From: Somniosus microcephalus
Taxonomy: Eukaryota
Assembly (NCBI GenBank): GCA_052327205.1
Contig: CM126229.1
Span: 30,814,001 to 30,878,000 of the forward strand
Direction of reading: 5' to 3'
Length of the DNA stretch: 64,000 nt
The translations under genes and the position numbers were made by a program. The stretch's first letter is position 1. Every line of letters starts with the position of its first letter. This document shows, in pieces, positions 7,156 to 7,756 of the stretch. Below the pieces are notes generated by a model. That model had not been told where the DNA came from and did not search any database. It worked only from the letters and a program-made list of their open reading frames with translations.

Positions 7156-7756
7156 CCCATTCGTAAGTTCTCTGTCCCTCCTCAGAGCCCCGTCTTTAGC
7201 TTCTCGCCCGCCTCACCCGAGCGCGACGCTTGTAAGGACTTCTCTCGCCAGCCCGGCACCGTGTGGCAATCGAAACTAGCACACCACCACCGCCAGCCTG
7301 ACCCCAAGACACAAACGCTGCCGGCCAAGGCCAGCCTAAGCGAGAAGCCATTGCAGGCCATCAAATCCAACCCTCTCCCTATCAACCTCGCCGCGACCTC
7401 TCCTTCCCCGAACCCTCAGTGCCGCCATCCTTCTGTGCCATCGCCACCCCACCACCCCTCCATCCCTTCACCCTCCTTCATTCCGTCTGCCCCCGCTCGG
7501 TTTTTCCCAAGTACTAAAACGGGCGCCAAATCTATCCCTGCCACACAGGTGACCCCTCACCCCTCCCCTAGAGGCAGCCCCCTCCCCACCCCGCTGGGAA
7601 CCCCTGTTCACACGCCAAAGGAGAGCCCCACCAGCACGCCCAACGCGACACCACCGTCCAGCCCAGGGGTCGGAGGAGTGCCCTGGAGAACTCGGCTCAA
7701 CTCCATCAAGAACAGCTTCCTCGGGTCTCCGCGCTTCCATCGAAGGAAGCTACAAG
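7156..7756 (+). CDS. BRSK2: BRSK2-like exon, Pro/Ser-rich region (alternative in-frame acceptors at 7156, 7186, 7549)
   Basis: Encodes [18 protein letters not shown]...[27 protein letters not shown]...[10 protein letters not shown]. Donor CAAG|gtgagc at 7756/7757. The 7549-7756 part is secure; the 5' boundary is uncertain. Confidence 0.85.

What the first reader, a model, noticed from the sequence alone, without database searches (positions are those of the whole stretch)
7156..7756. One BRSK exon carries three in-frame 3' splice sites matching BRSK1-type and BRSK2-type boundaries
Seen: phase-0 YAG acceptors before 7156 (tttcag|CCC, PIRKF), 7186 (tctgtccctcctcag|[11 protein letters not shown]) and 7549 (tctatccctgccacacag|[12 protein letters not shown]), with no stop between them. 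Recalled: after the shared SSPR, human BRSK1 continues [14 protein letters not shown] and human BRSK2 continues VTPHPSPRG; both blocks occur here in series. Inference: splicing could add 0, 121 or 131 Pro-rich residues, and the mammalian paralogs may each have fixed one ancestral splice choice.
Basis: partly seen in the sequence, partly recalled or inferred. Interest (0 to 1): 0.7.

Follow-up and report, generated by a model that had tools for sequence, protein, structure and literature searches.

The report
Ancient three-way splice choice in BRSK1
An exon of a shark brain-kinase gene (likely BRSK1) has three in-frame entry points that would add 0, 121 or 131 proline-rich residues; the layout is shared with the sister gene BRSK2, so it likely predates their duplication, and gene catalogues already list these forms, leaving their function and uneven loss in mammals as the open questions.

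Summary
In-frame CAG acceptors lie before 7156 (A1), 7186 (A2) and 7549 (A3), with a shared donor after 7756. The gene is a shark BRSK1-side paralogue; BRSK2, on another contig, has the same three acceptors. Spliced contigs from related species join the upstream SSPR exon to A1 (1 of 6 runs laid) and A2 (2 of 6). A3 is inferred from contig breaks in one run and from 704-aa database isoforms in 8 sharks and rays. Lungfish BRSK1 has models for all three. The extension is coding-constrained (dN/dS about 0.15 against one relative), and a Gln precedes VTPHP in 302 of 302 long models. The isoforms are catalogued; ten paper searches found no description of this event, its age or its function. It is an old, ordinary kind of alternative 3' splicing with an untested role.

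The parts
7126..7155 (+). Acceptor A1: pyrimidine tract and CAG; a TGAC at 7130-7133 is a possible branch site (inferred)
   Evidence: the TGAC aligns with TGAC in the paralogue; junction to 7156 in run X1
7156..7185 (+). A1-only segment, 10 codons [10 protein letters not shown]; its last codons are also the pyrimidine tract and CAG of acceptor A2
   Evidence: no difference listed for run X2 across 7156-7246
7186..7548 (+). Extension entered at A2: 121 Pro/Ser-rich codons
   Evidence: junction to 7186 in runs X4 and X11; dN/dS about 0.15 over 7156-7548
7306..7323 (+). KTQTLP motif, the conserved core of the extension in both paralogues
   Evidence: invariant in 22 of 22 aligned rows
7514..7548 (+). 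Acceptor A3 written inside coding sequence: branch-like CTAAA (A at 7517, -32), pyrimidine tract and CAG (codons KSIPATQ)
   Evidence: branch-like motif at -32 in both paralogues; Gln before VTPHP in 302 of 302 long models
7549..7756 (+). Core of the exon, present in all three forms (VTPHPSPRG...RRKLQ), donor after 7756
   Evidence: 4 of 4 runs splice at 7756 to the exon starting at 11576; 704-aa models
11576..11621 (+). Next exon (VPTEEMSSLTPESSPE)

Best explanation
This exon of a shark BRSK kinase gene (likely the BRSK1 orthologue) has three in-frame 3' splice sites that compete for one upstream donor, two shown in spliced contigs of related species and the third inferred, and the arrangement likely predates the BRSK1/BRSK2 duplication. 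Entry at A3 gives the short linker; entry at A2 or A1 adds 121 or 131 residues to the proline-rich linker between the kinase-UBA part and the KA1 part. The inner acceptors are written inside codons: A2's tract is the end of [11 protein letters not shown]3's branch site, tract and CAG are the codons TK...KSIPATQ, so these bases serve as both protein code and splice signal (inferred from conservation). After the duplication the sites were lost unevenly: A1 appears lost from BRSK1 in tetrapods and teleosts, A3 too in mammal-type BRSK1, and A2 from placental BRSK2, which keeps A1 and A3. The likeliest role (untested, about 0.5) is to switch a disordered docking and phosphorylation segment built round KTQTLP in or out, changing partners or localisation rather than catalysis.
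For: Junctions. Isoform models: 459 proteins sorted, BRSK1-type A1 19, A2 63, A3 87, other 14; BRSK2-type A1 212, A2 8, A3 32, other 7; 17 unsorted. Six sharks and rays have both A1 and A3 models, lungfish all three. Paralogue with the same acceptors and -32 branch motif. Tree: shark and bony-vertebrate BRSK2 group together (SH-aLRT 100) apart from the window gene. Both loci lie tail to tail with a MOB gene. Coding constraint: 18 of 27 differences at third positions, dN/dS about 0.15; no third-position change in 30 codons at A1/A2 and 27 round A3 against 18 in 92 between (P about 0.001 and 0.003, zones chosen after seeing the data). Solved BRSK2 structures match residues 2-341 and 646-774 of a shark relative, not the linker.
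Against: No run of the window's own species was shown spliced. No single run shows all three junctions, and the A3 junction contig was not listed; the break at 7548 in X1 also coincides with a base difference at 7578. Runs are contigs with RNA status guessed, so no usage levels or tissues. Most isoform records are predicted 'X' models whose read support was not seen, and their counts reflect the queries. BRSK2 A2 rests on 8 records, 4 from one species. The tree is quick, unrooted and without outgroup; the BRSK1 side is not a supported clade under its midpoint root. No lamprey or hagfish sequence was identified. Nothing here tests function.
Confidence: 0.85

Rival explanations
1. Only two states matter, long and short; A1 versus A2 is tandem-acceptor slack 30 bases apart with no functional difference.
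For: Different runs and species show one or the other; A1 is absent from amphibian, reptile and teleost BRSK1-type sequences and A2 from placental BRSK2, so either is dispensable.
Against: PIRKF..PPQ is kept in both paralogues of sharks and in lungfish BRSK1; 7156-7246 shows no difference in run X2; lungfish BRSK1 and Erpetoichthys BRSK2 each have models for both.
Confidence: 0.4
2. One reading: each mammalian paralogue fixed a single ancestral splice choice (BRSK1 A2, BRSK2 A3).
For: Mammal-type BRSK1 sequences keep A2 only; many mammalian BRSK2 models use A3.
Against: Human NP_001427594.1 and NP_001427595.1 and many other mammalian BRSK2 models use A1 with an intact 108-123 aa extension.
Confidence: 0.1
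3. The extension is intron sequence caught by leaky upstream acceptors; the long forms are splicing noise or annotation artefacts.
For: Runs X2 and X4 hold contigs with intron sequence just upstream of A1; the middle of the extension aligns poorly and varies in length.
Against: Open frame with frame-keeping indels in runs X2 and X4, dN/dS about 0.15, invariant KTQTLP across both paralogues, direct junctions in 3 of 6 runs.
Confidence: 0.04

Closest known systems
Human BRSK2 isoforms 6 and 7 (NP_001427594.1, 812 aa; NP_001427595.1, 790 aa) and the predicted BRSK2 'X' isoforms of many vertebrates
   Same: Same exon, same A1 start (PIRK...), same KTQTLP core, same Q|VTPHP inner acceptor.
   Different: The window gene is the other paralogue; it keeps A2, which placental BRSK2 lacks (PPPPPEPP instead of PPQ|SP).
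RefSeq models of shark 'BRSK2-like' and lungfish BRSK1 (e.g. XP_072348321.1 and XP_072348323.1; XP_043915048.1 to XP_043915056.1)
   Same: The orthologous exon entered at A1, A2 or A3; 835 versus 704 aa in Scyliorhinus torazame; all three forms in Protopterus.
   Different: Catalogue entries only, named BRSK2-like in sharks; no paper describing them was found in ten searches.
C. elegans sad-1 exon 15 alternative splicing (PMC6641836, passages read)
   Same: A SAD/BRSK kinase under neuron-type-specific splicing; the authors also draw a parallel between worm splice forms and the two mammalian genes.
   Different: A cassette exon that changes the C-terminus, not an in-frame acceptor choice in the proline-rich linker.
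Described human BRSK2 splicing at exon 19 (10.1101/2025.03.02.641068 and PMC1779574, passages read)
   Same: Alternative splicing of a vertebrate BRSK gene.
   Different: Exon skipping and a tandem donor near the 3' end; a different exon and a different kind of event.

Membership tests
In-frame alternative 3' splice sites | Two or more acceptors joined to the same donor | tested here: met
   Upstream exon joined to 7156 (X1) and to 7186 (X4, X11) in related species; 7549 inferred
In-frame alternative 3' splice sites | All acceptors used within one species | tested here: inconclusive
   Lungfish has models of all three, six sharks and rays of A1 and A3; in runs only X1 points to two; nothing for the window's species
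In-frame alternative 3' splice sites | Shared downstream donor and kept reading frame | tested here: met
   4 of 4 runs splice at 7756; all three acceptors in phase 0
In-frame alternative 3' splice sites | Regulated (tissue- or stage-specific) use | not testable with these tools
   Only contigs of unlabelled runs were served
BRSK/SAD kinases | Kinase, UBA, proline-rich region and KA1 part in the BRSK exon series | tested here: met
   Exons cover 603 of 704 residues of a shark BRSK protein, 598 identical; best PDB match BRSK2; domain order as in PMC11964447 Fig. 1 legend (passage)
BRSK2 orthologues | Groups with shark and tetrapod BRSK2 | tested here: not met
   BRSK2 clade SH-aLRT 100 excludes the window gene; the locus on C15 carries the BRSK2-type exon
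BRSK1 orthologues | Groups with named BRSK1 in a rooted tree | tested here: inconclusive
   On the BRSK1 side of the main split and shares SVSGAS.GLSS and LGTP signatures, but the tree has no outgroup
Paralogue subfunctionalisation by partition of splice forms | Ancestral gene made several forms | tested here: met
   Homologous acceptors in both paralogues, which implies a shared ancestor (inference)
Paralogue subfunctionalisation by partition of splice forms | Each duplicate keeps a single, complementary form | tested here: not met
   Mammalian BRSK2 keeps A1 and A3; sharks keep all sites in both genes. The mammalian sets are complementary (A2 versus A1+A3) but both still make a long form

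The most novel reading that the evidence does not exclude
A splice switch as old as the BRSK1/BRSK2 duplication moves a conserved docking segment (KTQTLP, and RKFSVP in the A1 form; both resemble the recalled 14-3-3 consensus RxxS/TxP) in and out of the linker next to the autoinhibitory KA1 part. Mammals split the acceptors between the paralogues: BRSK1 locked in the long form, BRSK2 keeping the switch. Human BRSK2's 122-residue extension would then be a functional brain segment that is absent from the reference isoform used for autism variants (absence recalled, not checked).
Probability: 0.3. Interest if true: 0.6.

Novelty: new member of a known kind. Interest (0 to 1): 0.32.

Why it matters
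BRSK2 is an autism-risk gene and BRSK1/2 set neuronal polarity (PMC9231588, PMC10959942; passages read). If the long forms are functional, work on the short BRSK2 form misses a segment kept in jawed vertebrates in both paralogues, and variants in it go unread. The exon is also a clear case of splice signals written inside codons and of uneven loss of splice sites after duplication. The kind of event is ordinary and the isoforms are already catalogued, so interest is modest.

Tried and rejected
No holder on record as RNA was listed; the runs used are guessed RNA and judged so by their spliced joins. Runs X3 and X5 gave no contig on the upstream exon and X3 covered only 7588-7756: no evidence either way. 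Contig depth (9.9 before and 21.6 after 7548 in X1) was not taken as a usage level. A third homologue search aimed at mammalian BRSK1 returned only 5 reptile proteins. The protein atlas gave no usable hit. A pattern search for further SSPR-exon donors found the known one and an unrelated match on C36, and missed the C15 paralogue's. The careful tree did not finish; the quick tree is reported. The in-frame CAG before 7420 was rejected as a conserved acceptor (changed in X2, used by none of the models read). A dynein light chain TQT site was considered for KTQTLP and set aside because the recalled consensus spacing does not fit. No fold or complex was predicted: the segment is Pro/Ser-rich and the candidate binding needs phosphorylation. 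Paper searches that returned no description of this event: (listings only, except the papers cited with passages). PMC6451696 was not held. Passages of PMC7798022, PMC13542418, PMC3205853 and 10.1101/832279 did not mention this event. No supplements were read; genome-wide splicing tables may list it.

Full report
What is there. The three acceptors are at the stated places, in one open frame, and the exon ends at 7756. The exons downstream lie at 11576, 14029, 15553, 16664 and 19384. The exon ending in SSPR lies 353 bases before the window and ends in phase 0 with AGG|gtaagt. Together the exons cover 603 of 704 residues of a shark BRSK protein with 598 identities.

Which gene. The genome gave two matches to the core exon, the window's on C28 and one on C15. 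The best protein hits are shark and ray 'BRSK2-like' proteins (84-92% identity), then lungfish, coelacanth and amphibian BRSK1. In a quick tree of 33 rows with the variable segment removed, shark, ray-finned fish and tetrapod BRSK2 form one group (SH-aLRT 100) that excludes the window gene, which falls with the shark 'BRSK2-like' proteins on the same side of that split as named BRSK1. The tree has no outgroup, so 'BRSK1 orthologue' is the likely, not the proven, name. Both loci have a MOB-family gene tail to tail downstream, as expected for a duplicated block.

Are the acceptors more than chance? Not by sequence alone: there are 6 in-frame CAG codons in the exon, and one before 7420 looks as good as the three. 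Use and conservation decide it. Six of 24 listed runs were laid, all as contigs from other organisms with RNA status guessed. X1 joins the upstream exon to 7156. X4 and X11 join it to 7186. In X1 the upstream contig stops exactly at the donor and the downstream contig starts exactly at 7548, the shared G, which is the pair of breaks expected if a second, short path runs from the donor to 7549; no contig ran on into the intron. The short contig itself was not listed, and the break coincides with a base difference at 7578, so A3 use in X1 is inferred. X2 starts in the intron at 7088, X3 covers only the core, X5 gave nothing. All four runs laid on the exon splice at 7756.

Database models. Of 459 proteins fetched, BRSK1-type records enter at A1 19 times, A2 63, A3 87, elsewhere 14; BRSK2-type at A1 212, A2 8, A3 32, elsewhere 7; 17 lacked the SSPR motif. 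These are records chosen by my queries, not species or levels. Eight sharks and rays have a 704-aa A3 model, 131 shorter than the 835-aa A1 models; six of them also have an A1 model. Hemiscyllium has an A2 model. Lungfish BRSK1 has three models of each kind. Most are predicted records whose read support I did not see.

Constraint. Against run X2, 7156-7548 has 27 listed differences (38 of its 43 changed places were shown; the rest appear to lie further 3'), 18 at third positions (P 0.0004); classed by hand as 18 silent and 9 not, dN/dS is about 0.15. Indels in X2 and X4 keep the frame. No third position changes in 30 codons at A1/A2 or 27 round A3, against 18 of 92 between; the zones were picked after seeing the data. 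The C15 paralogue has TAG, CAG and CAG at the three aligned places, near-identical tracts, and a branch-like motif at -32 from A3 as in the window. A Gln precedes VTPHP in 302 of 302 A1 and A2 models. KTQTLP is invariant in 22 of 22 aligned rows from both paralogues. Among 150 distant representatives, 21 of 36 vertebrate-type sequences carry a KTQTLP-like motif and 0 of 114 others do (types set by motif), which suggests a vertebrate origin; no lamprey or hagfish sequence was identified.

How it likely works. One donor, three competing acceptors. A3 has its own branch motif inside the extension's codons; A2's tract is the tail of the ten A1-only codons. The products differ only in the proline-rich linker, which no solved BRSK2 structure covers. 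The insert has 27 Pro, 20 Ser and 7 S/T-P sites in 131 residues. I infer a disordered docking and phosphorylation segment; the likeness of KTQTLP and RKFSVP to the 14-3-3 consensus is recalled and untested.

Half right. Three unnamed sequences match the recalled mammalian BRSK1: they keep SPVFSFSP and KTQTLP, the two read-through ones have no PIRK block upstream, and all have R|STP in place of Q|VTP; an Arg codon cannot end in an in-frame AG, so A3 is gone at that place. But amphibian, turtle, lizard and alligator BRSK1 have both A2 and A3 models, and human BRSK2 isoforms 6 and 7 use A1 with a 122-aa extension, beside mammalian A3 models. Placental BRSK2 lacks only the A2 Gln. So the pattern is uneven loss, with BRSK2 keeping the long/short switch.

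What is known. Ten paper searches found no description of this event. Passages read concern BRSK2 exon 19, worm sad-1 exon 15, domain layout and autism genetics. Subscription papers and supplements were not seen.

Verdict. A real, ancient, catalogued set of alternative acceptors of an ordinary kind; the shared origin in both paralogues and the uneven loss seem undescribed; function untested. Interest 0.32.

Noticed in passing
window 30185-36699, - strand: Exons of a MOB-family (Mob1/phocein, closest own-genome match 76% on C15 beside BRSK2) gene lie tail to tail with the BRSK gene; the same order is seen at the paralogous locus.
   Followed up: partly
window 7163-7168: A perfect donor hexamer GTAAGT sits 7 bases after acceptor A1; it is absent from the C15 paralogue and none of the models read uses it. 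It could act as a U1 decoy between A1 and A2; untested.
   Followed up: no
window 7064-7155: The intron just upstream of A1 is conserved (4 substitutions and 1 deletion in 68 bases in run X2), holds YCAY and YGCY clusters, and appears in contigs of X2 and X4, the X2 one being spliced at 7756; this may be slow or regulated removal of this intron.
   Followed up: partly
P0290, P0291 (lizard BRSK1 models): Two lizards share an internal deletion of about 33 residues in the extension that yields AGEQPPP, the same words as mammal-type BRSK1; possibly an intron within the exon.
   Followed up: no
P0226, P0384, P0385 (gecko BRSK1 models): Three geckos have a different 27-residue insert between SSPR and VTPHP.
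   Followed up: no
window about 3090-6275 and 8270-9130: Long simple repeats flank the exon: an imperfect tandem unit upstream and a purine-rich GATG/GATA array downstream.
   Followed up: no
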